From an uncultured Chryseobacterium sp. (GTDB lineage Bacteria; Bacteroidota; Bacteroidia; Flavobacteriales_D; Sanyastnellaceae): 64,000 nt of DNA. The stretch spans positions 5,233-69,232 of the forward strand of contig CAZNVU010000001.1 of NCBI GenBank assembly GCA_964576575.1, written 5' to 3'. Numbering within the stretch: position 1 is the first letter of the stretch; every line of letters starts with the position of its first letter. Below, piece by piece: positions 30,680 to 64,000 of the stretch. The notes below the pieces were generated by a model. That model did not search any database. It saw nothing but the letters and a program-made list of their open reading frames with translations, and was not told the DNA's origin. The translations under genes were made by a program, and so were the position numbers.

Positions 30680-33600
30680 GTGAGGCGTAGTTTTGGGCAT
30701 ATCGTTCATTGGGTTTTTATTGCTGTAATTACAGTGGTTTCATCATGGGTAGCTTTGTCTGTTTCAACCATAGAGAATTCTGTTTACTACCGTAGGAGAG
30801 CGCGCATTGTTGCTGAAGTGGATACTACGATTACTCCCCCTGTTTGGCCCAATCAAGACCCCATCAATCCCTCACCTACTCCGAGTGGTATTGCCGTTCC
30901 ATTACCTAAAAATATCAAATACCACGTTGAGTATAATCCAGAAACAGGGATGTATGAAGTATCCCAAAAAGTGGGTGATAGAATTGATTTCAGAAGTGCC
31001 ACGCAAATGACCCGAGAGGAGTTCATGGATTTTCAAATGAAGGATAATGTAACGGCTTACTGGAAGGAATTGGTGGAAGAGGAAGATCAGGCAAAAAGAG
31101 AGTTTGCACCCGTTTTTAAAATCAACTCCGACGCTTTTGAGAATATTTTTGGATCCAATGAAATTGAGATTCGTCCACAGGGAAGCGCTGAATTGACATT
31201 TGGCATGAACATGTCTAAAGTAGACAATCCAAGAATTCCAGAGCGCCAAAGAAAAGTAACCACTTTCAATTTTGATCAAAAGATTCAACTTAATGTGACC
31301 GGTAACATTGGAACCCGCATGAAGCTTAATGTGAATTACAACACAGAGAGCCAGTTTGATTTTGAGAATCAAATGAAGTTGGGATATACGGGTGATGAAG
31401 ACCAGATAGTCAAGAAAATTGAATTGGGTACTGTTCAAATGCCCCTTTCAGGTTCATTGATACAAGGGAGTTCTAGTTTATTCGGTGCCAAGATTGAGAC
31501 CCAATGGGGCAAATTGAAAAACACCACAGTTCTTTCACAACAAAAAGGTGAGCGCAAAGAAATTACAGTCCAAGGCGGAGCGCAAACCCAGCAATTTGAT
31601 ATTTCGGCTGATAATTATGAAGCCAACCGCCATTATTTTCTATCAGGATTTTTTAGAAACAGCTATGACCGCGCTATGGAGACCCTTCCAGTGGTCAATA
31701 GTGGAGCCAACATCACCCGGATTGAGGTTTGGGTGGTAAACCAGCAAGCCAACACCCAGGACGTAAGAAATGTATTAACTTTCTCTGACCTAGGAGAAAG
31801 TCAGAGTTTCATGTCAACGGATTATGCCTTCCAAGGCTTAATGAATCCCAATCAAATTCCCAATCCAGACAATGACAACAATGCCTTGCACGATATCATG
31901 ACTGGTTCCCCTGAAATATTGGGATTTACAAATGCTAACCCAGCAATACAAGCATTGGGACTGGGCTTGAAGCAAGGGATTCATTATGAGCGTGTGGGTA
32001 ATGCGCGTAAATTGACCAGTTCTGAGTTCACTTATAATGCCCGACTGGGTTTTATCTCATTGAAGCAGGCACTGAATAATGCAGAGGTTTTAGGGGTTGC
32101 TTTTGAGTACACGTTGAATGGTCAAACATATCAAGTGGGCACCTTGTCACAGGATGGTATCGCTGCACCCAATGCATTGGTTCTAAAAATGTTGAAATCA
32201 TCCATAACGATGGTGGAGTTGAGCAATGGAGACCCTGCGCCATTGTGGGACAACATGATGAAGAACGTATACAACTTGGGTGCTTTTGGCGTTTCTCCTG
32301 AGAATTTTCGTTTGGATCTTTGGTACAACAATCCTTCCACAGGGGTTAATATGAACAGTATACAGCGCGACCCCCTGTCTGGTAAGTTGTTGCTGCAGGT
32401 TTTGGACTTAGACCGAATCGACAACCAACAAATGCCATACCCAGACGCCTTCTTTGACTTTGTTCCCAATGCTGCAACGCAGGGTGGTTTGATAGATGCA
32501 CAAACGGGTCGAATTTTCTTTCCACACATTGAGCCGTTTGGACAACATCTCTCCAATGAGATTATTGCGGGTTTAGGGAATACGACAGCTGCTCAACAAA
32601 TGATCAGTCAGGTGGTTTTTCAACCGTTGTACGATAGTACAAAGACTTCCGCTCAGATTAATTTTCCTCAGCTGAATCGATTTAGAATTAAAGGACAATA
32701 TCAGAGCGCTTCAGGTTCTGATATTTCTTTAAACGCGATGAACATTCCTCAGGGATCTGTGAGTGTTACCTCCGGGAGTATCAGATTGGTAGAAGGTCAA
32801 GACTACACAGTGGATTACAACCTGGGTCGCGTTAAAATAATCAATGAGGGTGTCATGAACAGCGGTAACCCCATTAAGGTTTCAGTGGAGAGTAACTCGC
32901 TATTCAACATGCAATTCAAGACCATGATTGGAAGTCGTTTTGACTATAAGTTTAGTGATAAATTGACAGTAGGATCAACGGTGATGAATTTGCGTGAACG
33001 ACCCTTAACGCAAAAGGTGAATATCGGTGATGAGCCGGTGAACAACTGGGTATTGGGAGCAGATTTTAATTACCAAGAGGAAGTTCCGTTCATCACGGAG
33101 ATGATTGACCGCTTGCCTTTTATTAAAACCAAAGCCAAGTCAACCATTTCCTTTAGCGGAGAGGCTGCCAAACTATTTCCAGGTCACAGTAGAGCGATTT
33201 CAAGAATTGGAAATTCCTACATCGACGATTTTGAAGGAAGTCAAAGTATTATTGATTTGCGGAGCATTAATCAATGGTTCTTGGCCAGTACCCCAAAGCT
33301 TCAACAAGGCCTGTTTCCCGAAGGGAATATCGAGGATAGTTTGATATACAATTACAACCGCGCTAGATTGAGTTGGTATGTTATCGACCCCTTGTTTTAT
33401 CGTTCCAATGCCCTGACACCACCCAATGTCGATGAGGAAATGCAAAGTGATCATCGCATGCGAGAGATATTGGAGTCAGAGGTTTTTCCAAATAGACAAT
33501 TGCCTCCTGGAACTCCTCCCAATATCGCTTCTTTGGATTTGACTTATTATCCCAGTGAGAGAGGTCAGTATAATTTTGATGTACCGGATGGTGTTCCAGG

Positions 33601-36600
33601 TTATTCTGCTGGGTTAGATCAGGACGGTTTCTTGAATGATCCAGAGTCGCGTTGGGGAGGAATCCAGCGCGCCTTAACTACAACAGACTTTGAAATGAGC
33701 AATGTTCAGTTCATTCAATTTTGGCTAATGGATCCATTTCATGAAGACTCACCCAATGCAAATGGAGGAGATTTGTATTTTAATTTGGGTAATGTTTCAG
33801 AGGATGTCTTGAATGATTCTCAATTGTCATTTGAGAATGGTTTTCCAACAGACAATAATCCACTGCCCACCCTGCAGGGAACATGGGGAAATTATCCCAA
33901 CCCTTCAACTTTTAATGTCGTCAACGCATTTGATAACACCACAGGCTCTTATGCTCAGCAGGATATTGGCATGGATGGATTGAATTCCAGCGGTGAACAG
34001 ACGTTTTTCTCGCAATGGTTGTCCTCCGTTCAGGCGCATGTAACGGCAGATGCATATGGAAAAATTGCCCAGGATCCAGCTGCTGATGATTTCCGCTATT
34101 TTAGAGGTAGCCAGAGTGATCAAGAGAACTTGAATACCATTGATCGATACAAGTTTTTCAATGGATATGAAGGAAACTCCAATACTTCCAGTCCAGAAGG
34201 ATATCCTATAGCTGCAACAACAGTTCCCAATACGGAGGATATCAATCAAGATATTACATTGAATCAAATTGAAAGTTATTTTCAATACAAGGTCAGTCTA
34301 CGTCCTGGTGATTTGGGAGAGAATAACATTGGGGATAATTACATTACGGACAGTTTTGTAACCACTAAAACCACAGCGGATGGTGATGAAAGAGAGATCC
34401 GGTGGTATCAATTCAAGGTGCCAATTAAAGAGTTTGAAAAGCGCATCGGTAACATACCTGATTTTCGTTCTATCCGGTATATCCGCATGTTTTTAAAAGG
34501 TTGGGATCAACCTGTGACGCTGCGCTTTGCACGATTGGAGTTGGTGAGGGGTGAGTGGCGTAAATTTGAGAGTAGTCTTTTAGGACCACAAGAATTGGAG
34601 CCCAATGATGATGAGCCAACAGAGTTTGATATAGCGGCAGTAAACATAGAAGAGAACGGAAACAGAGAGCCAGTTCCATATACTGTTCCTCCAGGAATTA
34701 TTCGTGAACAGGATGTGGCCTCGGCCAACTTGCGCAGCATGAATGAGCAATCCTTATCCATGACTGTTTGCAATTTGAATGATGGAGACGCAAAGGCAGC
34801 TTACCGAAATGTGAATTTTGACATGCGACAATACAAGCGTTTACGAATGTTTGCGCATATAGAGGCCAAAGGTGTGGAGAGTGCCTTAAGGAATAAGGAT
34901 CTTACTGTTTTTGTTCGTTTGGGGTCTGATTTTGATCAAAACTATTATGAGTATGAAATGCCAATGGCTGTAACCCCATGGTTTACAGATGACGATAATG
35001 AGATATGGCCTGAAGAAAACAATTTTGACATCTTGATCAAAGATCTGCAAGATTTGAAAGCCAATCGACCCGCTGGATTTAGTGCCTTGCAGGAGTTTTC
35101 TAGAATGCTATCTGAAAATGTACGTATTTCAGTAAGAGGTAACCCCAATGTTGCCAATGTTACAGTACTGATGATTGGTGTGCGCAATCCAGATGATAAG
35201 AAGAATAGCTTTGTGAACAACGATGATGGATTGCCAAAGTGCGCTAGCATTTGGGTAAACGAGTTGAGATTATCTGAGTTTGATAACACCTCTGGATGGG
35301 CAGCATTGGGTAGGATTACAGCACAGTTGGCAGATTTAGCAACGGTAAATGTAGCCGGAAACATTAGTACACCCGGCTGGGGATCCGTTGAACAGAAGGT
35401 GCAAGAGCGTCAACAAGAGACAAGAACAGGTGTTGATGCAAGCACCACCATACAAATGGGAAAATTGATGCCGGAAAACTGGGGCGTCCAGCTGCCTTTG
35501 TTCATGGGATATTCAGAGAACGTTTCTACGCCAAGGTTTAGTCCATTGCAACCTGATTTGGAGTTGAATGATTTGCCCAATCTTTCCAAGCCATTGAAGC
35601 AGAAATCTCAAACGATGACACGGCGCAGGAGTATAAACGTCACCAATGTAAAGATTGCACCCAAGAAAGGAGAGAAAGAGGCATCGGGAGGAGGTGCGCC
35701 ACCGGCCCCTGGAGCCCCTGCGGCAGCGGCTGGTGGAGGAGATAAGCCTAAGTTTTATGCCATTGATAATTTCAGTGTAAGCTATGCATACAATGAAATT
35801 TATTTCAGAGACATCAATATTGATTGGCGATTGAATAAACAATACACGGGAGCCTTTGATTATGCCTTCACCAATAAACCAAAAGAGATTAAGCCTTTTG
35901 CGAAGTTGCCATTGGTGAAAACATCACCCTACCTGAAGTGGATCAAAGAGTTTAATTTTTATCCAGGTATCAAATCTGTAGGCTTCCATACCGACATGAA
36001 TCGTTCTTATGAAACCAGTCGAATCAGGAATAACACTTTGGAATTGTCCGGGGTTTACAGCGACATGCTGATACAGACACAAGCGCAAAAGAATTGGAGT
36101 TGGAATCGGAATTACAACGTGAAGTATGATTTGACCAAGAGTATCAAGATGGATTTGACGGCATCCACAACAGCCTTGATACGGGAGCCTCGAGGTGTAA
36201 TAAATCGTGAAGATAAGGATTGGTATGATGCTTATAGGGATACCGTTCGCCAGAACATTTTGAGCATGGGTGAACCTACTATTTACAATCATCAATTTAA
36301 TGCTTCATACAAATTGCCATTTGATAAGTTCCCCCTGATAGATTTTGTGAATTCGGATGTGAAGTATGGTTCTAGCTTTAGATGGGACCGAGCTCCCTTT
36401 ACACAGGACACACTTGGTAATAAAATACAAAATTCAAGGCAGTTGAACTTTAATGCAACAGCCAATTTTGAAACATTGTACAACAAAGTTCCTAAGTTGA
36501 AGCAAATCAACCAAGGGAAGAAGAAGGATGATAAGAAGAAGTCAGGAGATAAAAATAACCCAGATAACAAAGATGGATTTGGAAAAGAGATTGAGAAACC

Positions 36601-38056
36601 TGAAAAGAAGGAGAAAATTGTTTGGACAGATGTGGCTTTGCGCTTCTTGATGATGGTGAGAAATGCCAATATGAGTTATACCAGAAATGAAGGAATGATG
36701 TTGCCTGGTTATAACCAACGTGCTGGTCTTTTGGGTTTGAATAATCAATTTACCGCGCCAGGAGTTGGTTTTGTTTTGGGGCAACAAAATACAGATTGGC
36801 GAGGGGATTTGACAGATCGCAATTTTGCTCTGGATATGGCCAATGGTGGATATGTGGTGGGTTCACCTTTCCAGAATAATCAGTATACAGAAACTTCAAG
36901 CACTACTTGGAATGCAAAAGCATCCATAGAACCAATCAAATACCTGAGAATAGAATTGACAGCCAATAGACAAGACGGTAGAAACTTGACCAGCTTTTTT
37001 AGGTATTCAGCTGACTCCATGGAATACCAGTTTCAGTCACCGATGGAGACAGGAAACTTCAGTGCCTCCATTAACACCTGGGCGACAGCCTTCGCACGTG
37101 ACGACAAAGACAATGGAAACATGTCTGATCCATTCTTGAATTTGATAGCATACAGACAAGAGATTTCAGGACGATTGAATGCTGAGAACTATCAATTGAA
37201 TGATGTGGACACTGCAGGATATTATCAAGGTTTTGGTGGCACTTCCCAGGACGTTATTATTCCAGCTTTTATTGCTGCATATACAGGAAAGAGTACAGCT
37301 GAAGTTTCTTTGAACCCATTCAAAACAATGGCTCAACCCAACTGGAAAATCAGTTATGATGGATTGACTAAGCTGGAGAGTGTAAAGAAATATTTCAAGC
37401 AATTTACCATTAATCATCAGTTCAAATCTACTTTGAACGCCAGCTATGTTACCAACTTGAATTTTGAGCAAGATCAGTTAGGAAGGCCAACCGCTCTAGA
37501 TGCCAATGTACAGCCCAATTGGATTTCAGAAAAGCAAATCAACACTGTCACCATTACGGAATCCATGTCACCATTGTTGGGTTTTGATATGACGGTAAAG
37601 ACCAAGAAGAGCAATGACCCTCAGATTAAGGTGGAGATGAAGCGCGATAGAACCATCGCATTGGGATTGGCCAATAATCAAGTCACGGAAAACAGAAGCA
37701 ATAGTTTTGTGATTGGAACCGGTTATAAGTTCACTGACATTCCCAATCCAATTGCCAAAATCAAGGGAAAGAAGTTTCCAATGAAGTTGTTAAAGAGTAC
37801 AACGCTAACCTTACGGGCAGATTTAACTATGCGTGATAACGTGACGATGATTCGTAAGATAGTAGAGCAGCAAAATCAAATTACTGCCGGACAAACGCTA
37901 TGGAGTTTAAAGACCAGCGCTGACATGGCAGTGAGTGATAAGTTGACATTGCGTTTCTTCTATGATCACCAGTTCAACAAACCCAAGATTTCCAACTCGT
38001 TCAACAATACCAATATCAATTCAGGAATTGCAATTAGATTTACACTCAACGGTTAA
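30680..38056 (+). CDS. sprA: T9SS translocon / cell-surface protein SprA (Sov family)
   Basis: It is a 2458-aa protein with an N-terminal anchor, and the rest is beta-rich with the aromatic-alternating pattern of a giant barrel. Size and composition fit SprA. The GTG start is the very first codon after the ruvA TAA. Confidence 0.8.
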   Translation: MRRSFGHIVHWVFIAVITVVSSWVALSVSTIENSVYYRRRARIVAEVDTTITPPVWPNQDPINPSPTPSGIAVPLPKNIKYHVEYNPETGMYEVSQKVGDRIDFRSATQMTREEFMDFQMKDNVTAYWKELVEEEDQAKREFAPVFKINSDAFENIFGSNEIEIRPQGSAELTFGMNMSKVDNPRIPERQRKVTTFNFDQKIQLNVTGNIGTRMKLNVNYNTESQFDFENQMKLGYTGDEDQIVKKIELGTVQMPLSGSLIQGSSSLFGAKIETQWGKLKNTTVLSQQKGERKEITVQGGAQTQQFDISADNYEANRHYFLSGFFRNSYDRAMETLPVVNSGANITRIEVWVVNQQANTQDVRNVLTFSDLGESQSFMSTDYAFQGLMNPNQIPNPDNDNNALHDIMTGSPEILGFTNANPAIQALGLGLKQGIHYERVGNARKLTSSEFTYNARLGFISLKQALNNAEVLGVAFEYTLNGQTYQVGTLSQDGIAAPNALVLKMLKSSITMVELSNGDPAPLWDNMMKNVYNLGAFGVSPENFRLDLWYNNPSTGVNMNSIQRDPLSGKLLLQVLDLDRIDNQQMPYPDAFFDFVPNAATQGGLIDAQTGRIFFPHIEPFGQHLSNEIIAGLGNTTAAQQMISQVVFQPLYDSTKTSAQINFPQLNRFRIKGQYQSASGSDISLNAMNIPQGSVSVTSGSIRLVEGQDYTVDYNLGRVKIINEGVMNSGNPIKVSVESNSLFNMQFKTMIGSRFDYKFSDKLTVGSTVMNLRERPLTQKVNIGDEPVNNWVLGADFNYQEEVPFITEMIDRLPFIKTKAKSTISFSGEAAKLFPGHSRAISRIGNSYIDDFEGSQSIIDLRSINQWFLASTPKLQQGLFPEGNIEDSLIYNYNRARLSWYVIDPLFYRSNALTPPNVDEEMQSDHRMREILESEVFPNRQLPPGTPPNIASLDLTYYPSERGQYNFDVPDGVPGYSAGLDQDGFLNDPESRWGGIQRALTTTDFEMSNVQFIQFWLMDPFHEDSPNANGGDLYFNLGNVSEDVLNDSQLSFENGFPTDNNPLPTLQGTWGNYPNPSTFNVVNAFDNTTGSYAQQDIGMDGLNSSGEQTFFSQWLSSVQAHVTADAYGKIAQDPAADDFRYFRGSQSDQENLNTIDRYKFFNGYEGNSNTSSPEGYPIAATTVPNTEDINQDITLNQIESYFQYKVSLRPGDLGENNIGDNYITDSFVTTKTTADGDEREIRWYQFKVPIKEFEKRIGNIPDFRSIRYIRMFLKGWDQPVTLRFARLELVRGEWRKFESSLLGPQELEPNDDEPTEFDIAAVNIEENGNREPVPYTVPPGIIREQDVASANLRSMNEQSLSMTVCNLNDGDAKAAYRNVNFDMRQYKRLRMFAHIEAKGVESALRNKDLTVFVRLGSDFDQNYYEYEMPMAVTPWFTDDDNEIWPEENNFDILIKDLQDLKANRPAGFSALQEFSRMLSENVRISVRGNPNVANVTVLMIGVRNPDDKKNSFVNNDDGLPKCASIWVNELRLSEFDNTSGWAALGRITAQLADLATVNVAGNISTPGWGSVEQKVQERQQETRTGVDASTTIQMGKLMPENWGVQLPLFMGYSENVSTPRFSPLQPDLELNDLPNLSKPLKQKSQTMTRRRSINVTNVKIAPKKGEKEASGGGAPPAPGAPAAAAGGGDKPKFYAIDNFSVSYAYNEIYFRDINIDWRLNKQYTGAFDYAFTNKPKEIKPFAKLPLVKTSPYLKWIKEFNFYPGIKSVGFHTDMNRSYETSRIRNNTLELSGVYSDMLIQTQAQKNWSWNRNYNVKYDLTKSIKMDLTASTTALIREPRGVINREDKDWYDAYRDTVRQNILSMGEPTIYNHQFNASYKLPFDKFPLIDFVNSDVKYGSSFRWDRAPFTQDTLGNKIQNSRQLNFNATANFETLYNKVPKLKQINQGKKKDDKKKSGDKNNPDNKDGFGKEIEKPEKKEKIVWTDVALRFLMMVRNANMSYTRNEGMMLPGYNQRAGLLGLNNQFTAPGVGFVLGQQNTDWRGDLTDRNFALDMANGGYVVGSPFQNNQYTETSSTTWNAKASIEPIKYLRIELTANRQDGRNLTSFFRYSADSMEYQFQSPMETGNFSASINTWATAFARDDKDNGNMSDPFLNLIAYRQEISGRLNAENYQLNDVDTAGYYQGFGGTSQDVIIPAFIAAYTGKSTAEVSLNPFKTMAQPNWKISYDGLTKLESVKKYFKQFTINHQFKSTLNASYVTNLNFEQDQLGRPTALDANVQPNWISEKQINTVTITESMSPLLGFDMTVKTKKSNDPQIKVEMKRDRTIALGLANNQVTENRSNSFVIGTGYKFTDIPNPIAKIKGKKFPMKLLKSTTLTLRADLTMRDNVTMIRKIVEQQNQITAGQTLWSLKTSADMAVSDKLTLRFFYDHQFNKPKISNSFNNTNINSGIAIRFTLNG

Positions 38057-40802: not shown

Positions 40803-40823
40803 GAGCACCAATAATTATGTCTG

Positions 40824-56311: not shown

Positions 56312-58525
56312 TTATGAAAATTCAGACTCGATTCTGTCAACGGTTAATACGCCATCTACAGCCTTGAGGTTTTTGATTAGATCGTTCAAATGCGCGGTAT
56401 CATGGACCAACACAACGACACGACCACTGAAAATACCATCTATGGCTTCAAATGATATGGCTCTCATGTTTACCCTCATATCCGTAGAAATGATATTGGT
56501 GATCTTTTGAACCAATCCTACATCATCAATTCCGGTGAATTTTAAACCTACTTCAAACTGAACCAAATTCTGACTATTCCATCTGGCCTTGATAACGCGA
56601 TATGCAAATTTGCTCATCATCTCCTGAGCGTTGGGACAGGAAGTGCGGTGAATTTTTATGCCTTCATCGACCGTGGTAAAGCCAAAAACTTCATCTCCTG
56701 GTATGGGATTGCAGCACGTAGCTAGGCTAAAATCCACCTTCTGTTCAGCATCACCAATAACAACGGAGCTGCCAACACTTGGCGCTGTGGTGATTATTTT
56801 TGTAGACTCCTCCGAAGATGATTTTTCCTTTTTTCGATTAACTTTTATTCTTCCACCCTCAATTTTGAAGCTTTTGAAATCTTTTAATACAACTTTTTCT
56901 TTGGCAATTCTGAAATAAAGTTCTTGGGAGGAGAAAGTTTCGAAGTACTTTACCATTTCATCGATGTTGACGGCCAACCAATCGGCATGTATGCTTTGGA
57001 AAAACTTCCGAAGCAAAGATTTTCCCTCCTCCGCAATTTCTTTCCTTTCTTCTTTTAAAGCTACTTTGATTTTCTGACGTGCACTAGCCGTAACAACAAT
57101 ACTCAACCATTCTTCTTTTGGCCTTTGTTTCTTAGACGTTAAAATTTCTATTTGATCACCACTTCTGATGACATGGCTCATGGGAACCAATTTATGATTG
57201 ACTTTTGCGCCAATGCATTGGGAACCAATTTGAGAATGTATATTGAAAGCAAAGTCCAATGCGGTGGATCCTTTGGGCAATGTTTTTAAATCACCACTGG
57301 GAGTAAAGACATAGATTTCTTCCGAGAAAAGTGAAAGTTTGAAATTGTCAATGAATTCCAGCGCATCGTCACCAGGATTTTCCAGTACCTCACGCACCTG
57401 GCTCAACCATTTGTCCAACTTGCTCTCTGGTGATTCAACTGTTCCTTTGTATTTCCAGTGAGCAGCATATCCTTTTTCGGCAAGGTCATCCATTCTTAAT
57501 GAACGAATTTGAACTTCCACCCATTTTCCAGAAGGAGACATGACGGTGGTGTGCAACGCCTCGTAACCAGAAGATTTGGGAATGCTTATCCAGTCCCTTA
57601 AACGCTCAGGGCTGGGTTGATAGTAATCGGTTACTGCGGCATAAACTCGCCAGCATTCACTTTTCTCATGTTCTTCATCACTATCAATGATGATGCGGAT
57701 GGCAAATAAGTCATATATCTCTTCAAAAGGAACCCCTTTCTGATGTATTTTATTCCAAATGGAGTAAATCGATTTTGTTCTGCTTTTGATTTCATATTTC
57801 ACCCCCATTTCATCTAATGCACGACGAATGGGTAGGGTAAATTGATTGATGAATCGTGTTCTTACAGCTTGTGTCTTTTGTAATTTGGCGGTAATGTCAT
57901 CATAAGCATCGGAATCTTGGAATTTGAGGCTGAGATCTTCTAATTCTGTCTTGATATTATACAATCCCAAGCGATGTGCAAGAGGTGCATACATGAACAA
58001 AGTCTCACTTGCAATTTTCAACTGCTTTTCCCTGGACATATGATCCAATGTTCTCATGTTGTGCAGTCTATCTGCCAGCTTAATGAGAATCACGCGGACA
58101 TCATCACTGAGCGTGAGCAACATCTTTCTAAAATTCTCTGCCTGTTGACTGGTGGTTTGGTGATCAAAAACACCAGATATTTTGGTTAAACCATCAATGA
58201 TAATCCGCTCTTTTTTCCCAAAAAGATTCTCAATATCATCTAAGGTGATATAAGTATCTTCTACTGTATCATGCAGCAAGGCACAAACAATCGCCAAAGT
58301 GCCTAGACCCAATTCCTCTGCGGCAATTTTTGCAACTGCTAGGGGGTGATAGATGTACGGCTCACCGCTCTTGCGTCGCATATCCTTGTGGGCCTCCAAT
58401 GCCACATTAAAGGCCTTTCTTATGAGGTTGCGCTCGTTTCTTGTTTTTGAGCGATTGCACACACGCAATAGGCTGCGGTATCTTCTGACAATCTCTTTGT
58501 TTTCTTCAATTAAATCAATTTCCAC
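56312..58525 (-). CDS. relA: Bifunctional (p)ppGpp synthetase/hydrolase (RelA/SpoT family)
   Basis: It has an HD hydrolase domain (LLHDTVEDT), a synthetase domain (SGYEALHTTV), then TGS and ACT-like C-terminal regions. The start is GTG, since a stop lies 3 codons upstream. Confidence 0.9.
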   Translation of the reverse strand: MEIDLIEENKEIVRRYRSLLRVCNRSKTRNERNLIRKAFNVALEAHKDMRRKSGEPYIYHPLAVAKIAAEELGLGTLAIVCALLHDTVEDTYITLDDIENLFGKKERIIIDGLTKISGVFDHQTTSQQAENFRKMLLTLSDDVRVILIKLADRLHNMRTLDHMSREKQLKIASETLFMYAPLAHRLGLYNIKTELEDLSLKFQDSDAYDDITAKLQKTQAVRTRFINQFTLPIRRALDEMGVKYEIKSRTKSIYSIWNKIHQKGVPFEEIYDLFAIRIIIDSDEEHEKSECWRVYAAVTDYYQPSPERLRDWISIPKSSGYEALHTTVMSPSGKWVEVQIRSLRMDDLAEKGYAAHWKYKGTVESPESKLDKWLSQVREVLENPGDDALEFIDNFKLSLFSEEIYVFTPSGDLKTLPKGSTALDFAFNIHSQIGSQCIGAKVNHKLVPMSHVIRSGDQIEILTSKKQRPKEEWLSIVVTASARQKIKVALKEERKEIAEEGKSLLRKFFQSIHADWLAVNIDEMVKYFETFSSQELYFRIAKEKVVLKDFKSFKIEGGRIKVNRKKEKSSSEESTKIITTAPSVGSSVVIGDAEQKVDFSLATCCNPIPGDEVFGFTTVDEGIKIHRTSCPNAQEMMSKFAYRVIKARWNSQNLVQFEVGLKFTGIDDVGLVQKITNIISTDMRVNMRAISFEAIDGIFSGRVVVLVHDTAHLNDLIKNLKAVDGVLTVDRIESEFS

Positions 58526-58630
58526 AATTCGAAGCTAGAATCAAAACAACAATGTTGACCGCTTGATTTTTTCTTTTTGTTAAAAAGGATAGTTGGAAAA
58601 ATTAAACTTGTAATTTTTCGAGAGTTTCCA

Positions 58631-58638
58631 TATTTTTG
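58631..58638 (+). promoter_or_regulatory. Candidate -7 promoter box (TATTTTTG) with a -33-like CTTG 20 nt upstream
   Basis: A perfect TAnnTTTG match 24 nt upstream of the ATG at 58662, with CTTG at 58607-58610. It lies in the divergent relA/giant-ORF intergenic region. Confidence 0.35.
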
Positions 58639-58661
58639 ACAACTAACCAAAATTTATCTAG

Positions 58662-61600
58662 ATGAAAAAAGTTGTTTTTTTCAGCAAAATCGATGTTTTC
58701 AAGTTGCCACTTTTAGTGATTCTTGTAGCGGTTCTTCAAACGATTAGCTTTACTTCATTTGCTCAAGGTGATGAGCCGTGGACGGCTTTTACAGCTGATC
58801 CAATCACCGGTTGCGTGGATGTTACAGTCGATCCAGCATTGTATACTCCTTCAGCAAATCCAGGTGCTCCAGGTTGTGCAAATAATCCCTCTTGGCAAGG
58901 AGTTCAGCAAGCGGATGTTTGGTTTGCATTGGTGGTACCTTCTTCAGGTGTCCTTTTGTTGAACCCGCAAGGTACAGTCGACGCAGGTATGGCGGCCTAC
59001 ACCCTTGATGGATCAACGGGATTGTACACTTTGTTGGCTTGTGATGATGACACTGGTCCTGGCCTGATGCCACAGATTAATGTTACGACGGTTCCTGCTG
59101 GAGAAATAGTGTACGTTCAATTATGGGCTTATGCTGGTGGGCTGATTAACTTTAGCTTATGTTCTTCAGATTGTGAAGCTCCAACGGCCTATTATTCTGA
59201 TGCGGATGGTGATGGTTTTGGAAACAACAGCAACGCAATTTATACTTGTACACCAGACCCATCATTGATTACGGACAATACGGATTGTAATGATGCCGAC
59301 GCAACAATCAATACAGCTGCTGTTGAAATTTGTTATGATTTGATTGATAACAACTGCGATACACAAATAGATGAAGGTTGTATAGTTGACGCTGATGGAG
59401 ATGGTTTTACCTCAGATGTTGATTGCAATGATGGTGATCCCAACATTAATCCTAGTGCAGTCGAATTGTGTGATTTAATTGACAATAACTGTAACACCAT
59501 AATAGACGAAGGTTTTGATCAAGATGGTGATGGTTTTACCTCTTGTAATGGTGATTGTGACGATAGTAACCCTTCTGTTTTCATTGGAGCATCTTGTGAT
59601 GATGGTAATCCCAACAGCTCCAGTGATGTGATTCAGGCGGATTGTTCCTGCGCTGGAGCAATTGGAGACGATCCATCATCAGCCTTTACGGCTGATCCAA
59701 CAACGGGGTGTATCGATATTACGGTTGACCCAACAACTTACACAATCTCCACAGTAGTTGCTGCTCCGGGTTGTGCTGGTAACTCTGTTGGTAGCGAGAA
59801 TCCAGATGTTTGGGTGCTTTTGAATGCGCCATCCAATGGAGAGCTTTTGTTGTCTCCACAGGGAACCGGCGATGCAGGAATGGCAGCCTACAGTTACGAC
59901 GCAGGAACCAACACATACACTCTTTTGGGTTGTAATGACGATTCAGGGCCTGGACTGATGCCTTTGTTGAGTTTGACAGGGTTAATTCCAGGCTCCCCAA
60001 TATACATTCAGCTTTGGGCCTACAATCCGGGAAACACACTTAATTTTTATTTTTGCTCTTCAGATTGTACAACAGCATTGGCCTACTTCATGGATGCCGA
60101 TGCTGATGGTTTTGGTGACAATAGCCAAGCTCCTGTTTTAACATGTACTCCAGACGCGAATATGGTTTTGGACGGCACAGATTGTAACGATGCAAGTAGC
60201 ACTTCTTACCCAGGAGCTACTGAATTCTGCGACGGTTTAGATAATGACTGCAATGGATTGAACGACGATAACTGCGTTGGTCTTGTCGATAATGATGGGG
60301 ATGGATTTACCTCGGATGTAGACTGTGATGATAGCAACATCTCCATCAATCCAGCAGCCATAGAGGTTTGTGATGGAATTGATAACAACTGTAATATTGA
60401 AATCGATGAGTTTGTTAGCACCGAATACTACGCGGATTTGGATGGCGATGGATTTGGTGATGTGAATAATACGGTATTCGATTGTTCTCAACCAGGAGGA
60501 TATGTCACCAACTTTGATGATTGTAACGATGCAAGTATCACCTATGTCGACGGTGACGGTGACGGAGACGGTTCTTCAGTTATTGATGCTTGCGGTTCAA
60601 CAACCAATGGGGATTGTGCGGATAATAACCCAGCTGTGAGCTCTTTGGCTTCAGAAATTTGCGAAAATGGTATCGACGATGATTGCACTGGCGGTGATGC
60701 TCTTTGTGCAGGAGTTGATTTGGATGCTGACGGATTTAATGCCCCAGCGGATTGTAATGATAACGATGCCTCTATTAATCCAGGTGCCGTTGAAGTTTGT
60801 GGTGATGCAATTGATCAGAATTGTTCCGGTGTAGCCGATGAAGGCTGTACCGCCTCAGACAATGACGGAGATGGATTTGATGCATTGACTGACTGTAATG
60901 ACAATTGTGCAACAATTTATCCTGGCGCACCATGTAACGATGGCAATGCTGGCACAATAGACGAAACATTACAGGCAGATTGTACTTGTGGTGGTGGAAC
61001 AACAATCACATCATGTTTGGGACCCCAAAGTATTTCATTTGAGCCATTGCCAACAGCAGGTACTTGGCCTGTTGGAACCAATGTTACAATTTGTTATTCT
61101 TTGGATTATGGACAAAATTCAGGAGATTGGTTAGACGGGATGGCAATTTCCCTTGGAACAGGCTGGTCTTTGGCTACTCCTCTTACTCCACCTTTGGAAT
61201 GTAATGGTGGTCCCGGTGATTGGATTTGGCAAGAAAGTATCGCTCCAACAGGTGGTTCAGCCTTTCCTGCTGGCCAAGGATACTACTATGACTATACCAT
61301 TGATGGAAACGGAGGAAATGATTGGGGTGATGCAGGATCTTGTGTATTCAATATGTGTTTTACTGCCACAACAGTTGCTACGGTTGACCTGGCCGTTACT
61401 ATTGCCTCAGGTGGAGATAGTCAATTTGGAAGTTACACCTCTACAGCGGGTTGTCCAATAGAACCATTTACTGTTGATCCTGTTTCATTGCCAGTATGTT
61501 CTATAGAATTCCCATTCTGCGCAACACCATCCACCTGTGATCCTATTACCAATCAATATACTTTGGTTCAAGCACAGAACAACTACATCAATACCACTTT

Positions 61601-64000
61601 GGCTCCAGGCACTGGAACTTTGGATTTATTATTGGACGGAAACGTTATTCAAACTTGGAACGCTCCTTTCAATTCAGTTATTCCATTGAATATTACTGGA
61701 TTGAACTCGGATGGTGCTAATCATACTTTGATGGCGATGTACTCTGCAAACCCTGGTTGTATGGGAACAACTACATATGTTGCTCCTGCTTTCTGTGCTG
61801 GCCAAGATGATGATGCGGACGGATACGTAGCTGCTGATGATTGTAATGATTTAGATGCCACTGTTAATCCAGGAGCTCCAGAGATTTGCGACTTGCAAGA
61901 CAACAATTGTGATGGTGTAATTGACGAGAATCAAGATGCTGACGGAGATGGATTCACCTCGTGTAATGGAGATTGTAACGATGCAGATAATACTGTCTGG
62001 ATTGGAGCTACTTGTGATGATGGAGATGCAACAACCACCAACGATTTGATTCAGGTAGATTGCACTTGTGCAGGCGTTTTGGGTGATGAGCCATCAAATG
62101 CCTTCACAGCTGATCCTGCTACCGGCTGTATCGATATAACGGTTGATCCAACGGCCTATACCATTAGTACTGTAGTTGCTGCACCAGGTTGTGCAGGAAA
62201 TACTGTAGGTAGTGAGAATCCAGATGTTTGGGTATTGGTTAATGCTCCTGCAAATGGTGAGTTATTCTTGTCTCCTCAAGGTACGGGTGATGCTGGTATG
62301 GCAGCCTATAACTACGATGCAGGAACCAATACTTATACATTGTTGGGTTGTGATGATGATACTGGTCCAGGATTAATGCCTCAATTGACCTTAACCGGAT
62401 TAACACCAGGCGCCCCAATTTATATCCAACTTTGGGCTTATAATCCTGGAAACACCATAAATTTCAGCTTCTGTTCTGCAGACTGTACAACAGCTCTAGC
62501 ATATTATCCTGATGCTGATGGTGATACTTTTGGAGACGCAACTGCAACACCGATTTTGACTTGTACTCCAGAAGCTACATGGGTAACCAATAATACCGAT
62601 TGTAATGATGCCGCAGCTAATGCATTCCCAGGAGGAACCGAGGTTTGTGGAGATAACATCGATAACAATTGTGATGGAACAGTTGACGAAGGTTGTACCA
62701 CGGATATCGATGGTGATGGCTTTGTGACAGCGGTTGATTGTGATGACAATAACGCCGCCATCAATCCTGCAGCTGTTGAAATTTGTGATCTGATTGATAA
62801 TAACTGTGATGCGGTGGTTGATGAGGGATTCGATTTGGATGGTGATGGTTTTACATCTTGTAATGGAGATTGTAATGACAATGACCCAACAGTTTGGATT
62901 GGTCAAGTTTGTAATGATGGTAACCCAGCGACGGGTGGTGATGAAATCCAGTCTGATTGCTCTTGTTTGGGCTACATTTCATTGGAAGGCGATGAGCCAT
63001 GGACAGCTTTTGCTGCTGATCCAACAACAGGTTGTTTAACTATTTCAGTTGATCCTGCTGTATACACACCATCTACCAATCCAGGTGCACCAGGTTGTGC
63101 CAATAATCCATCTTGGCAAGGTGTGCAGCAACCAGACGCTTGGTTTGTAATCGCAGTTCCAGCATCAGGTACTTTATTGTTAAATCCTCAAGGAACGGTA
63201 GACGCAGCAATGGCAGCTTACACTTTTGATGCCGCAACAGGCTTATACACACAATTGGATTGTGATGACGATACAGGACCTGGTTTAATGCCAGAGATTA
63301 CAATTACCACTGTGCCTGCTGGTGAAATGATTTACGTACAATTATGGGCATTTGGAGGCGGATTAATCGAGTTTAGTTTGTGCGCTTCAGAATGTACAGA
63401 TCCAATTGCTTATTATTCCGATGTAGACGGAGATGGATTTGGGGACAATGCTACAGCGGTTTTCTTGTGTACACCAGACCCACTTTTGGTAACAGATAAT
63501 ACAGATTGTAATGACACAGATGCAGCAATTAACACAGGAGTTGCTGAAGTTTGTAACGATTTGATCGATAATAACTGTGATACGCAAATTGATGAAGGTT
63601 GTACTACCGATGCCGATGCTGATGGTGATGTTGACGCGGTTGACTGTGCTCCATTGAATCCAAATATCAACTCAGCGGCTGTCGAAATTTGTAATACGAT
63701 TGATGATAACTGTGATGGACTCGTTGATAATGGTCTGCCAACCACTACCTACTACCTAGATGCGGATGGTGATACTTTTGGAGGAACAACCTCTATGGAG
63801 TCTTGTTTCAATCCGAACTCTCCTCCTGTTTGTTTGTATACTTTCAACTTAACAGATACCTATGGTGACGGCTGGAATGGCAATCAAATGCAATTGACCA
63901 CAAATGGAGGCGCAACTGTTGAGGCTACCGTGGGATTAACATTTACAGACGGTTTAGGAGTTCAAGAGACCGTGTTGATGACCAATAATGTCGCATATGA
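58662..64000 (+). CDS. Giant secreted Cys/Asp-rich modular protein, 3' end beyond the window (more than 1779 codons); not present in the supplied ORF track
   Basis: I translated it by hand. The ATG at 58662 is preceded by an in-frame TAG, and I saw no stop through nt 64000. It has a signal peptide MKKVVFFSKIDVFKLPLLVILVAVLQTISFTSFA/QG. At least 17 MopE-type putative metal-binding motifs (D.DGDGF...DC.D.....NP.A.E.C...DNNCD...DEG) and four roughly 135-aa PPC-like domains stay in frame at 59664, 62082 and 62988. Confidence 0.9.
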   Translation, partial: MKKVVFFSKIDVFKLPLLVILVAVLQTISFTSFAQGDEPWTAFTADPITGCVDVTVDPALYTPSANPGAPGCANNPSWQGVQQADVWFALVVPSSGVLLLNPQGTVDAGMAAYTLDGSTGLYTLLACDDDTGPGLMPQINVTTVPAGEIVYVQLWAYAGGLINFSLCSSDCEAPTAYYSDADGDGFGNNSNAIYTCTPDPSLITDNTDCNDADATINTAAVEICYDLIDNNCDTQIDEGCIVDADGDGFTSDVDCNDGDPNINPSAVELCDLIDNNCNTIIDEGFDQDGDGFTSCNGDCDDSNPSVFIGASCDDGNPNSSSDVIQADCSCAGAIGDDPSSAFTADPTTGCIDITVDPTTYTISTVVAAPGCAGNSVGSENPDVWVLLNAPSNGELLLSPQGTGDAGMAAYSYDAGTNTYTLLGCNDDSGPGLMPLLSLTGLIPGSPIYIQLWAYNPGNTLNFYFCSSDCTTALAYFMDADADGFGDNSQAPVLTCTPDANMVLDGTDCNDASSTSYPGATEFCDGLDNDCNGLNDDNCVGLVDNDGDGFTSDVDCDDSNISINPAAIEVCDGIDNNCNIEIDEFVSTEYYADLDGDGFGDVNNTVFDCSQPGGYVTNFDDCNDASITYVDGDGDGDGSSVIDACGSTTNGDCADNNPAVSSLASEICENGIDDDCTGGDALCAGVDLDADGFNAPADCNDNDASINPGAVEVCGDAIDQNCSGVADEGCTASDNDGDGFDALTDCNDNCATIYPGAPCNDGNAGTIDETLQADCTCGGGTTITSCLGPQSISFEPLPTAGTWPVGTNVTICYSLDYGQNSGDWLDGMAISLGTGWSLATPLTPPLECNGGPGDWIWQESIAPTGGSAFPAGQGYYYDYTIDGNGGNDWGDAGSCVFNMCFTATTVATVDLAVTIASGGDSQFGSYTSTAGCPIEPFTVDPVSLPVCSIEFPFCATPSTCDPITNQYTLVQAQNNYINTTLAPGTGTLDLLLDGNVIQTWNAPFNSVIPLNITGLNSDGANHTLMAMYSANPGCMGTTTYVAPAFCAGQDDDADGYVAADDCNDLDATVNPGAPEICDLQDNNCDGVIDENQDADGDGFTSCNGDCNDADNTVWIGATCDDGDATTTNDLIQVDCTCAGVLGDEPSNAFTADPATGCIDITVDPTAYTISTVVAAPGCAGNTVGSENPDVWVLVNAPANGELFLSPQGTGDAGMAAYNYDAGTNTYTLLGCDDDTGPGLMPQLTLTGLTPGAPIYIQLWAYNPGNTINFSFCSADCTTALAYYPDADGDTFGDATATPILTCTPEATWVTNNTDCNDAAANAFPGGTEVCGDNIDNNCDGTVDEGCTTDIDGDGFVTAVDCDDNNAAINPAAVEICDLIDNNCDAVVDEGFDLDGDGFTSCNGDCNDNDPTVWIGQVCNDGNPATGGDEIQSDCSCLGYISLEGDEPWTAFAADPTTGCLTISVDPAVYTPSTNPGAPGCANNPSWQGVQQPDAWFVIAVPASGTLLLNPQGTVDAAMAAYTFDAATGLYTQLDCDDDTGPGLMPEITITTVPAGEMIYVQLWAFGGGLIEFSLCASECTDPIAYYSDVDGDGFGDNATAVFLCTPDPLLVTDNTDCNDTDAAINTGVAEVCNDLIDNNCDTQIDEGCTTDADADGDVDAVDCAPLNPNINSAAVEICNTIDDNCDGLVDNGLPTTTYYLDADGDTFGGTTSMESCFNPNSPPVCLYTFNLTDTYGDGWNGNQMQLTTNGGATVEATVGLTFTDGLGVQETVLMTNNVAY
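58767..59174 (+). repeat. Intragenic domain repeat, type A copy 1 (136 aa, GDEPWTAF...FSLCSSDC)
   Basis: It aligns colinearly with 62988-63395 at the protein level, sharing PGAPGCANNPSWQGVQQ, LLLNPQGTVDA, CDDDTGPGLMP and YVQLWA. Confidence 0.85.
59664..60068 (+). repeat. Intragenic domain repeat, type B copy 1 (135 aa, GDDPSSAF...FCSSDC)
   Basis: It aligns colinearly with 62082-62486, sharing TGCIDITVDPT.YTISTVVAAPGCAGN.VGSENPDVWVL and IYIQLWAYNPGNT. Confidence 0.85.
62082..62486 (+). repeat. Intragenic domain repeat, type B copy 2
   Basis: See 59664-60068. By eye the two copies are roughly three-quarters identical at the nucleotide level, with many synonymous differences. Confidence 0.85.
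62988..63395 (+). repeat. Intragenic domain repeat, type A copy 2
   Basis: See 58767-59174. Confidence 0.85.

What the first reader, a model, noticed from the sequence alone, without database searches (positions are those of the whole stretch)
58662..64000. Giant ORF missing from the supplied ORF track: more than 1779 codons open to the window end
The track lists only short ORFs on either strand after 58525. However, frame 58662+3n reads without a stop from an ATG preceded by an in-frame TAG to nt 64000. I translated it codon by codon and verified the frame at conserved motifs at 59664, 62082, 62988 and 63393. It begins with a good signal peptide and has a TAnnTTTG box 24 nt upstream. All the listed minus-strand ORFs between 58822 and 63745 are shadows of it. 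In the visible part there are at least 17 MopE-type putative metal-binding motifs and four PPC-like domains, and the protein is extremely rich in Asp, Cys, Gly, Thr and Asn. It is likely another T9SS or surface protein, but the C-terminus lies outside the window.
Basis: seen in the sequence. Interest (0 to 1): 0.7.

Follow-up and report, generated by a model that had tools for sequence, protein, structure and literature searches.

The report
Giant calcium-repeat surface protein gene
The open reading frame is real and is the first 72% of a roughly 2,470-residue, very acidic, cysteine-rich surface protein of a freshwater Flavobacteriales bacterium, exported by the type IX secretion system; it is an ordinary member of a widespread but uncharacterised class, and the ORF track omitted it only because it runs off the window.

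Summary
Frame 58662+3n is open from an ATG, preceded by an in-frame TAG, to nt 64000 (1779 codons). The chance probability is about 1e-47, and the other five frames carry 56-214 stops. The ORF track omits it because ORFs that run off the window are not listed.

A syntenic ortholog with 93% nt identity (L001) is colinear apart from one 5-bp deletion. dN/dS against it is 0.06-0.08. It places the stop about 695 codons beyond the window, after a T9SS type A sorting domain. The T9SS translocon gene sprA lies in the same window.

The visible part contains:
- a signal peptide (SFA|Q);
- four ~137-aa beta jelly-roll modules, which are divergent relatives of Pfam PF23759 GBD_T9SS_assoc, so "PPC-like" names the right fold class but not the best family;
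- 17 DxDxDG/Cys units, 11 of which pass Pfam PF11617;
- a tandem beta-sandwich pair with no Pfam family;
- the start of a further domain.

No catalytic domain was found. With one His, a MopE-type copper site is excluded.

The best reading is a calcium-stiffened, adhesin-like T9SS cargo. This makes it a new member of a known kind. One side observation: the passenger has no Lys or Arg, a trait shared across this protein class.

The parts
58608..58610 (+). -33-like TTG of the putative promoter
   Evidence: Invariant in all nine aligned orthologous upstream regions. It lies 20 nt upstream of the -7 box. The Bacteroidota consensus is TTTG/TANNTTTG (PMC6847099).
58631..58638 (+). -7 box TATTTTTG (TAnnTTTG / TAHHTTTG)
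   Evidence: Present in the window. Invariant in nine loci, including ones whose flanking intergenic DNA has diverged. The motif on its own is not enriched in the window.
58662..64000 (+). Giant ORF, first 1779 codons of a predicted ~2474-codon gene; the 3' end is outside the window
   Evidence: The length is predicted from the colinear ortholog L001/P0011.
58662..58763 (+). Sec signal peptide, residues 1-34 (MKK..., hydrophobic LPLLVILVAVL, cleavage SFA|Q)
   Evidence: Read directly from the sequence. Nearly all full-length orthologs show an A|Q junction after the hydrophobic core, as in the Bacteroidetes Q-rule (PMC5837995). No signal-peptide predictor was available.
58767..59177 (+). GBD-like beta jelly-roll module 1 (residues 36-172)
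   Evidence: Profile A1. AlphaFold2 pLDDT 77, all-beta. Foldseek gives weak matches to CBM6/CBM32/C-CPE. Relatives are PF23759.
59199..59663 (+). MopE-type units 1-3 (one long, one canonical, one short cap)
59664..60071 (+). GBD-like module 2 (residues 335-470)
60093..61007 (+). MopE-type units 4-9
61008..61802 (+). Tandem beta-sandwich pair (residues 783-1047) with no Pfam family
   Evidence: No Pfam hit. AlphaFold2 pLDDT 88. Foldseek gives only generic Ig/FN3/cohesin pairs from adhesins and pilins, best E 1.9e-5 and TM below 0.35. The first half recurs at the N-terminus of several orthologs.
61806..62081 (+). MopE-type units 10-11
62082..62489 (+). GBD-like module 3 (residues 1141-1276)
62511..62987 (+). 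MopE-type units 12-14
62988..63398 (+). GBD-like module 4 (residues 1443-1579)
63420..63830 (+). MopE-type units 15-17 (the last is only the N-terminal half)
63831..64000 (+). Start of a ~108-aa 'YGDGWNG' domain, cut by the window end
   Evidence: The complete copy in P0011 has no significant Pfam or PDB match.
30680..38056 (+). sprA, the T9SS translocon that would export the protein (machinery, not part of the gene)
   Evidence: PF14349 SprA_N, E 4e-180

Best explanation
The ORF is the 5' 72% of a gene for a ~2,470-residue cargo of the type IX secretion system in a freshwater Flavobacteriales (Crocinitomicaceae-like) bacterium.

Proposed route:
1. Transcription from a conserved Bacteroidota-type -33/-7 promoter.
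2. Sec export, with signal-peptide cleavage at SFA|Q.
3. Recognition of a C-terminal type A sorting domain, which lies beyond the window, by the SprA-based T9SS.
4. Removal of that domain, followed by either attachment to the cell surface or release.

The passenger is a long string of small all-beta modules: four galactose-binding-domain-like jelly-rolls, a tandem Ig-like pair and at least one more. These are separated by DxDxDG/Cys-rich MopE-type units. I infer that these units bind Ca2+ and are disulfide-stapled, which would make them stiff acidic spacers, as in thrombospondin type 3 repeats.

The most likely function is non-enzymatic: a surface adhesin or fibril that binds glycans or particles.

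Shown here: the reading frame, its conservation, the domain content, and T9SS targeting of the orthologs. Inferred: Ca2+ binding, disulfides, surface attachment and the ligand.
For: Real gene:
- The ORF is open over 1779 codons, P about 1e-47.
- There is a single gap against the 93%-identical ortholog L001, and that gap lies in L001.
- dN/dS is 0.06-0.08.

T9SS cargo:
- Orthologs of 2245-2493 aa (63-84% identity) carry PF11617 plus PF18962.
- P0011, the C-terminal ORF of L001, hits TIGR04183 at E 2.5e-10 and PF18962 at 3.9e-10.
- sprA and two other Por_Secre_tail cargos are in the window.
- The signal peptide has an A|Q junction in this protein and in nearly all full-length orthologs (PMC5837995).

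Conserved locus and promoter:
- The order Fur-RelA | giant gene | RecQ is seen in full in four loci, and partial versions on cut contigs agree in the rest.
- The -7 box and -33 TTG are invariant in nine loci (PMC6847099).

Domains:
- PF11617 scores 290 bits with 11 stretches, and there are 17 DxDxDG units.
- Dx[DN]xDG is a recurrent Ca2+-binding loop, including in thrombospondin (PMC3123361).
- Profile A1 of the ~137-aa module finds 3184 cluster representatives. Their matching segments are PF23759 GBD_T9SS_assoc, found in other T9SS cargos.
- AlphaFold2 models are all-beta, with adhesin, pilin or CBM-type fold neighbours.
- No catalytic Pfam or NCBIfam family appears in this protein or in full-length orthologs.
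Against: - The C-terminus of this very gene is not in the window, and its own contig could not be retrieved. The sorting domain is therefore inferred from orthologs.
- No experimental data exist for any member of this class.
- Ca2+ binding rests on a linear motif only. The one solved structure with the motif (MopE*, 2VOV residues 5-43, E 2.5e-5) was not inspected for metal contacts here.
- Fold matches for the jelly-roll module are weak (E at or above 2.5e-3, TM 0.35-0.45). A carbohydrate ligand is a guess.
- The ortholog copy in L001 is split by a 5-bp deletion, so the gene may be dispensable in some strains.
Confidence: 0.7

Rival explanations
1. It is a copper-binding or copper-scavenging surface protein that works like MopE of Methylococcus capsulatus, as the Pfam name Cu-binding_MopE suggests.
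For: The PF11617 match is strong. The only PDB relative by sequence is MopE* 2VOV.
Against: - The MopE* copper site is two histidines plus a kynurenine (PMC3423442 abstract).
- This protein has one His in 1739 mature residues and 1.1% Met.
- The match to MopE* covers only residues 5-43 of that chain, not its beta-core.
- The motif is dominated by Asp/Asn and Cys, which fits Ca2+ and disulfides better than Cu.
Confidence: 0.05
2. It is a secreted enzyme, such as a protease or glycoside hydrolase, whose catalytic domain is one of the unassigned modules or lies beyond the window. The jelly-roll modules would then be accessory PPC/CBM domains.
For: PPC and CBM-like modules usually accompany enzymes. 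Three modules have no family assignment: residues 783-1047, the YGDGWNG domain and the pre-CTD domain.
Against: - Full-length orthologs show only PF11617 and PF18962, and NCBIfam adds only sorting-domain matches.
- The 783-1047 region models confidently as two plain beta-sandwiches with adhesin or pilin neighbours.
- The remaining unassigned modules are ~110-130 aa, which is small for a catalytic domain.
- The near-absence of His, Lys and Arg leaves few catalytic residue types other than Asp and Glu.
Confidence: 0.1
3. It is a SprB-like mobile gliding-motility adhesin carried along the cell surface by the gliding machinery.
For: Many lower-ranked homologs are annotated 'gliding motility-associated-like protein' and combine PF11617 with CHU_C. 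The protein is giant, repetitive and T9SS-dependent.
Against: - No SprB repeat (PF13573) was found in this protein.
- The orthologs end in a type A domain (TIGR04183/PF18962) and not the type B CHU_C domain of SprB-type adhesins. CHU_C reaches only E 0.019, below threshold.
- The neighbours RelA and RecQ are housekeeping genes, with no sprF/porP-like partner adjacent.
Confidence: 0.1
4. The long open frame is an artefact: a chimeric or collapsed assembly of repeats, or a decaying pseudogene.
For: The gene is internally repetitive. The closest relative's copy is frameshifted.
Against: - Internal repeats are only 64-74% identical at DNA level, too divergent to collapse.
- The window is colinear with L001 over 5.3 kb, and the only gap is in L001.
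- dN/dS is 0.06-0.08 on both sides of that frameshift.
- Intact orthologs exist in many independent MAGs.
Confidence: 0.03

Closest known systems
MopE-related / 'putative metal-binding motif-containing' giant T9SS cargos of Bacteroidota (uncharacterised; PF11617 + PF18962 or CHU_C)
   Same: They share arrays of PF11617 units, a size above 2000 aa, an extremely acidic Cys-rich composition almost free of Lys and Arg, a signal peptide and a T9SS C-terminal domain. 1695 proteins scored E <= 1e-5 among the 8000 candidates that were scored. K/R-free runs above 2000 aa occur in many of them.
   Different: This ortholog group, seen in about 16 of the listed proteins, is defined by its module set: GBD-like jelly-rolls, the 783-1047 tandem pair and the YGDGWNG domain. 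It also sits at a fixed locus between relA and recQ.
MopE / MopE* of Methylococcus capsulatus (PDB 2VOV)
   Same: One copy of the ~40-aa motif (DxDGDG...DCxD...P.A.E...D.NC) lies at the N-terminus of MopE*.
   Different: MopE* binds copper through two His and a kynurenine in its beta-core (PMC3423442). That core is absent here and the protein has one His. MopE is not a T9SS cargo.
Thrombospondin type 3 (calcium-binding) repeats
   Same: Both have tandem Dx[DN]xDG loops interleaved with cysteines in an Asp-rich, extracellular, extended array. Dx[DN]xDG binds Ca2+ in thrombospondin (PMC3123361).
   Different: No sequence-level match was detected, since the PDB search returned only 2VOV. The resemblance is of design, and homology is not shown.
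Pfam PF23759 GBD_T9SS_assoc and PF04151 PPC modules of T9SS cargos
   Same: The ~137-aa module is homologous, through profile A1, to segments that Pfam assigns to PF23759, with weaker overlapping PPC hits. The predicted fold is a beta jelly-roll or sandwich.
   Different: The window copies do not reach either model. There was no hit at E <= 10. Across 18 family members, the best values were E 0.055 for PF23759 and 0.03 for PPC. This is a divergent, Cys-containing, K/R-free subfamily.
SprB gliding adhesin of Flavobacterium johnsoniae
   Same: It is a giant repetitive surface protein that depends on the T9SS.
   Different: This protein has no SprB repeats. Its orthologs carry a type A rather than type B C-terminal domain, and there is no adjacent SprF-like gene.

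Membership tests
T9SS type A cargo | C-terminal sorting domain (TIGR04183 / PF18962) | not testable with these tools
   The C-terminus lies about 695 codons beyond the window, and the contig could not be extended. The feature is met in the colinear 93%-nt-identical ortholog (TIGR04183 E 2.5e-10, PF18962 E 3.9e-10) and in all full-length orthologs.
T9SS type A cargo | N-terminal Sec signal peptide | tested here: met
   The sequence reads MKK-, then a hydrophobic core, then SFA|Q. An A|Q junction is conserved in nearly all full-length orthologs. This was judged by inspection because no predictor was available. It is consistent with the Q-rule (PMC5837995).
T9SS type A cargo | T9SS machinery encoded by the same genome | tested here: met
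   SprA is at 30680-38056 (PF14349, E 4e-180). Two other Por_Secre_tail proteins are in the window.
PF11617 (Cu-binding_MopE motif) repeat proteins | Match to the Pfam model above its gathering score | tested here: met
   290 bits against a cut-off of 27, E 3.1e-88, with 11 stretches.
MopE-type copper protein | His/His/kynurenine copper site in a MopE*/CorA beta-core | tested here: not met
   There is one His in the mature part. The match to 2VOV is limited to residues 5-43. The site definition comes from PMC3423442.
PPC, bacterial pre-peptidase C-terminal domain (PF04151) | Match to the Pfam model | tested here: not met
   The window copies give no hit at E <= 10. One of 18 family members reaches E 0.03. 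Distant relatives show PPC hits only as weaker overlaps of PF23759.
GBD_T9SS_assoc (PF23759) | Match to the Pfam model | tested here: not met
   There is no direct hit for the window copies. The best among 18 members is E 0.055.
GBD_T9SS_assoc (PF23759) | Homology to bona fide members over the whole domain | tested here: met
   Profile A1 matches P0186 34-156, P0226 29-157 and P0202 26-155, with whole-protein E 1e-36 to 1e-45. These coincide with the PF23759 stretches at 23-141, 28-144 and 24-142, which score above the gathering score.
GBD_T9SS_assoc (PF23759) | Beta jelly-roll (galactose-binding-domain-like) fold | tested here: inconclusive
   The AlphaFold2 model is all-beta with pLDDT 77. 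The top Foldseek hits are CBM6, CBM32 and C-CPE, but at E 2.5e-3 or worse and TM 0.35-0.45.
SprB-type gliding adhesin | SprB repeats (PF13573) and a type B CHU_C C-terminal domain | tested here: not met
   PF13573 was not found. In the ortholog, CHU_C reaches only E 0.019 against PF18962 at 3.9e-10.
Thrombospondin type 3 repeats | Sequence homology to TSP3 repeats | tested here: not met
   A PDB sequence search with three units returned only 2VOV. Only the Dx[DN]xDG loop and the Cys spacing are alike.

The most novel reading that the evidence does not exclude
The mature protein may be built to carry no primary amine and no fixed positive charge at all.

Every Lys and Arg of the predicted 2,474-residue precursor sits in the signal peptide or in the T9SS sorting domain, and both are removed. 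The new N-terminus is Gln, which Bacteroidota cyclise to pyroglutamate.

This K/R-free design is conserved across orthologs down to ~50% identity. It recurs in many other MopE-rich T9SS giants, with runs of more than 2000 residues.

It could be a selected requirement of this class. Possible reasons are Ca2+-bridged packing on anionic LPS, immunity to trypsin-like proteases, or resistance to amine-reactive chemistry. The alternative is that it is a by-product of acidity.
Probability: 0.25. Interest if true: 0.55.

Novelty: new member of a known kind. Interest (0 to 1): 0.3.

Why it matters
Practical value: the window's gene list needs this gene added, because it occupies the last 5.3 kb.

Biological value: it is a clean, intact, syntenically anchored example of a very large and entirely uncharacterised class of Bacteroidota surface proteins. 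The class has thousands of relatives and no experimental study that I could find.

Features that make it a usable entry point:
- three modules that lack any family model;
- a fixed locus between relA and recQ;
- fast module-swapping evolution next to slow housekeeping neighbours;
- a passenger free of Lys and Arg.

These could help in asking what the giant acidic T9SS cargos of freshwater Flavobacteriales do. None of this overturns current understanding.

Tried and rejected
1. Retrieving the window's own contig to see the true 3' end failed.
   - Exact-protein look-ups with RelA (two start choices) and Fur (TTG start) found nothing.
   - Fur from its ATG was found only on contigs of 4 kb or less, which reach just 243 codons into the gene.
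   - A 50-nt exact search of metagenome contigs with the window's last bases found nothing.

2. The search for homologous proteins returned no scored hit for the domain profile A1 or for residues 783-942 alone, although close orthologs exist. I treated this as tool behaviour and not as absence. The full HMMER scan replaced the first search. The breadth of the 783-1047 module therefore remains unmeasured; it is seen only in the ortholog group plus P0192 and P0229.

3. Direct Pfam assignment failed for the four jelly-roll modules, the central pair and the YGDGWNG domain.

4. PDB sequence searches with A1, A2 and the YGDGWNG domain gave nothing significant.

5. I rejected TAnnTTTG enrichment as evidence for the promoter, because the motif is slightly under-represented in the window. 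I used cross-locus conservation instead.

6. A literature search for PF11617, PF23759 or K/R-free T9SS cargos found nothing relevant beyond a teneurin paper and the MopE/CorA papers.

7. The recent-repeat or assembly-collapse idea was rejected, since internal DNA repeats are only 64-74% identical.
Full report
**1. The observation**

Translating window 58602-64000 in the stated frame gives stops at three positions upstream. The last is the TAG at 58659-58661. An ATG follows at 58662, and then 1779 codons run without a stop to the window end.

With the local base composition a random codon is a stop with probability 0.059. An open run of this length therefore has a chance probability near 1e-47. 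The other five frames of the same stretch contain 56 to 214 stops.

Three of them are the first codons of repeated domain copies.

The tool states that ORFs running off an end are not listed. The "missing" ORF is therefore a window-edge effect of the track.

**2. It is a real, intact, constrained gene**

A contig from assembly GCA_044239385.1 (locus L001) aligns to window 57583-64000. A global alignment of the ORF portion has 93% identity and one single gap, a 5-bp deletion in L001 opposite window 61097-61101. That deletion is why the gene is called as two ORFs in L001, of 845 and 1630 aa. The window copy is the intact one.

dN/dS between the two copies is 0.059 upstream and 0.079 downstream of that point, with dS of 0.24-0.30. 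This indicates strong purifying selection.

Internal repeats are only 64-74% identical at DNA level, so assembly collapse is not a concern.

Colinearity with L001 predicts 695 further residues beyond the window, for a total of about 2474 aa.

**3. Organism and locus**

A scan of species-representative genomes found the orthologs in freshwater-lake MAGs. These are labelled Flavobacteriales, Crocinitomicaceae or Bacteroidota, with two labelled Chryseobacterium (taxonomy).

The full order Fur-RelA on the minus strand, the giant gene on the plus strand, then RecQ on the minus strand is seen in L002, L004, L005 and L007. Partial versions on cut contigs (L001, L003, L006, L008-L010) agree.

In the closer loci (L002-L006, L009, L010), RelA is 96-97% and RecQ 93-95% identical to the window or L001 proteins. 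The giant protein is only 80-84% identical and differs in module content.

Window, L001, L006 and some others start with a signal peptide MKK... followed by a jelly-roll module. L002, L004, L005, L007, L008 and L010 start with a different signal peptide, followed by a copy of the first half of the 783-1047 module. This split does not follow RelA similarity, which points to recombinational module exchange. That last step is inference.

**4. Promoter**

TATTTTTG at 58631-58638 fits the Bacteroidota -7 consensus TANNTTTG/TAHHTTTG (PMC6847099, PMC7641319).

The motif alone proves little, with 47 matches in the window against 59.6 expected from shuffles.

In an alignment of nine orthologous upstream regions, however, this octamer is invariant. 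So is a TTG 20 nt upstream (58608-58610). Much of the surrounding intergenic DNA has diverged. I take the promoter as likely. No transcript data exist.

**5. Secretion**

The N-terminus has basic residues, a hydrophobic core and the junction SFA|Q. Nearly all full-length orthologs show an A|Q junction after the hydrophobic core, whichever signal peptide they carry. This fits the Bacteroidetes Q-rule (PMC5837995, PMC10653852).

The C-terminus is outside the window. The colinear ortholog ends in a type A T9SS sorting domain: TIGR04183 at E 2.5e-10 and PF18962 at E 3.9e-10, while CHU_C reaches only 0.019. All full-length orthologs carry PF18962.

The window itself encodes SprA (30680-38056, PF14349, E 4e-180). 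It also encodes two further Por_Secre_tail proteins, at 5-3664 and 38142-40811.

T9SS export is therefore well supported, although it is formally inferred for this copy.

**6. Domain anatomy of the visible 1779 residues**

*(a) MopE-type units.* Seventeen units start with DxDxDG. Pfam PF11617 scores 290 bits with 11 stretches passing alone. They come in three flavours:
- a canonical ~43-aa unit;
- a ~63-aa unit with a CTPD-containing insert;
- a short cap (DxDGDGFTSCNGDC...IQxDCxC) that always precedes a beta module.

*(b) Four ~137-aa modules*, at residues 36-172, 335-470, 1141-1276 and 1443-1579.
- They hit no Pfam family, even at E <= 10.
- A profile of 18 copies (A1) found 3184 cluster representatives at E <= 0.001 in a full HMMER scan, often with many copies per protein.
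- In those proteins the matching segments are what Pfam calls PF23759 GBD_T9SS_assoc. Weaker PPC (PF04151) hits overlap them, and the context is type A or type B T9SS cargos.
- The AlphaFold2 model is all-beta with pLDDT 77. Its Foldseek neighbours are CBM6, CBM32 and the claudin-binding domain of C. perfringens enterotoxin, all weak (E 2.5e-3 or worse, TM 0.35-0.45).
The better label is a divergent GBD_T9SS_assoc subfamily.

*(c) Residues 783-1047.*
- There is no Pfam or PDB sequence match.
- The region models confidently (pLDDT 88) as two beta-sandwiches.
- Its neighbours are generic Ig/FN3/cohesin pairs from adhesins and pilins.

*(d) Residues 1724-1779.* These begin a ~108-aa YGDGWNG module with no assignable family.

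*Beyond the window.* The ortholog adds about seven more MopE-type units, a CTDPEACNYN-containing module and the sorting domain.

No catalytic family was detected anywhere.

**7. Mechanism**

The Pfam name suggests copper. The copper site of MopE*, however, is two histidines plus a kynurenine (PMC3423442), and the CorA/MopE* core also holds a structural Ca2+ (PMC3912023).

This protein has one His in 1739 mature residues. Its only PDB relative by sequence, 2VOV, matches over residues 5-43 only. A MopE-type copper site is therefore excluded.

Dx[DN]xDG is a recurrent Ca2+-binding loop, and thrombospondin uses it (PMC3123361). With 17 such loops, 13% Asp and 99 Cys in an exported protein, I infer Ca2+-loaded, disulfide-stapled spacers that hold small binding modules apart on a long acidic stalk. 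This is the design of an adhesin or surface fibril.

Ca2+ binding, disulfides, anchoring and ligand are all inferences.

**8. Side observation**

After the signal peptide there is no Lys and no Arg in the visible 1739 residues. In the ortholog there is none in the 610 residues up to the sorting domain, which is where K and R reappear.

Nine orthologs share this. For comparison, cytoplasmic proteins of the window have 12-15% K+R and SprA has 10%.

The trait is not unique. K/R-free runs above 2000 residues occur in many other MopE-rich T9SS giants. It is a class property and, as far as my searches went, undocumented.

**9. Comparison and verdict**

The gene is a new member of a known, widespread, uncharacterised kind: MopE-motif T9SS cargos.
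- It is not a MopE-type copper protein.
- It is not a SprB-type adhesin. There are no SprB repeats, and the C-terminal domain is type A rather than type B.
- It does not reach the PPC or PF23759 models directly.

Interest is modest.

Noticed in passing
window 58764-64000 (mature part of the ORF); also P0001-P0030 and P0121-P0267: The passenger contains no Lys and no Arg, and one His, in 1739 residues. In the predicted full-length protein every K and R sits in the signal peptide or in the T9SS sorting domain. Nine orthologs share this. Many other MopE-rich T9SS giants have K/R-free runs above 2000 aa. A practical consequence is that tryptic proteomics would miss these proteins.
   Followed up: partly
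L001:3515 region, opposite window 61097-61101: The closest relative (GCA_044239385.1) has a 5-bp deletion that splits the gene into ORFs of 845 and 1630 aa. Both halves still show dN/dS below 0.08. This is either a very recent pseudogenisation or an error in the MAG assembly.
   Followed up: partly
window 58662-59663 versus L002, L004, L005, L007, L008, L010 and P0001-P0004: There are two alternative 5' 'alleles' of the gene. They differ in signal peptide and first module: jelly-roll plus MopE units in one, a copy of the 783-942 module in the other. The switch occurs right at the start codon, while the promoter and 5' UTR stay conserved. The distribution does not follow RelA similarity, which suggests recombinational module exchange.
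   Followed up: partly
window 58577-58585 and 58644-58652: TTGTTAAAA lies 77-85 nt upstream of the ATG and is invariant in all nine orthologous loci. TAACCAAAA in the presumed 5' UTR is nearly invariant (one position varies in a single locus). Neighbouring positions vary in both cases. These may be regulatory sites, possibly shared with the divergent relA gene. They remain unexplained.
   Followed up: no
window 30680-38056: A 2458-aa ORF is SprA, the T9SS translocon (PF14349, E 4e-180).
   Followed up: partly
window 5-3664 and 38142-40811: There are two further T9SS cargos with Por_Secre_tail. One is Cys-rich (5.7%) and K/R-poor, with EF-hand-like loops, and may be cut by the window start. The other is a CotH-kinase-family protein with CHB_HEX_C, LTD and Fn3_assoc domains.
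   Followed up: no
L001:14937-18499: Downstream of recQ, tatC and a SIS/CBS gene, the relative's contig carries two more T9SS cargos. One combines MopE motifs, a weak SprB repeat and Por_Secre_tail. The window's organism probably has the same genes just beyond nt 64000.
   Followed up: no
L004, L005 (record titles): Two MAGs that carry this Crocinitomicaceae-like locus are titled Chryseobacterium gleum and uncultured Chryseobacterium sp.. These are probably taxonomic mislabels in the public records.
   Followed up: no
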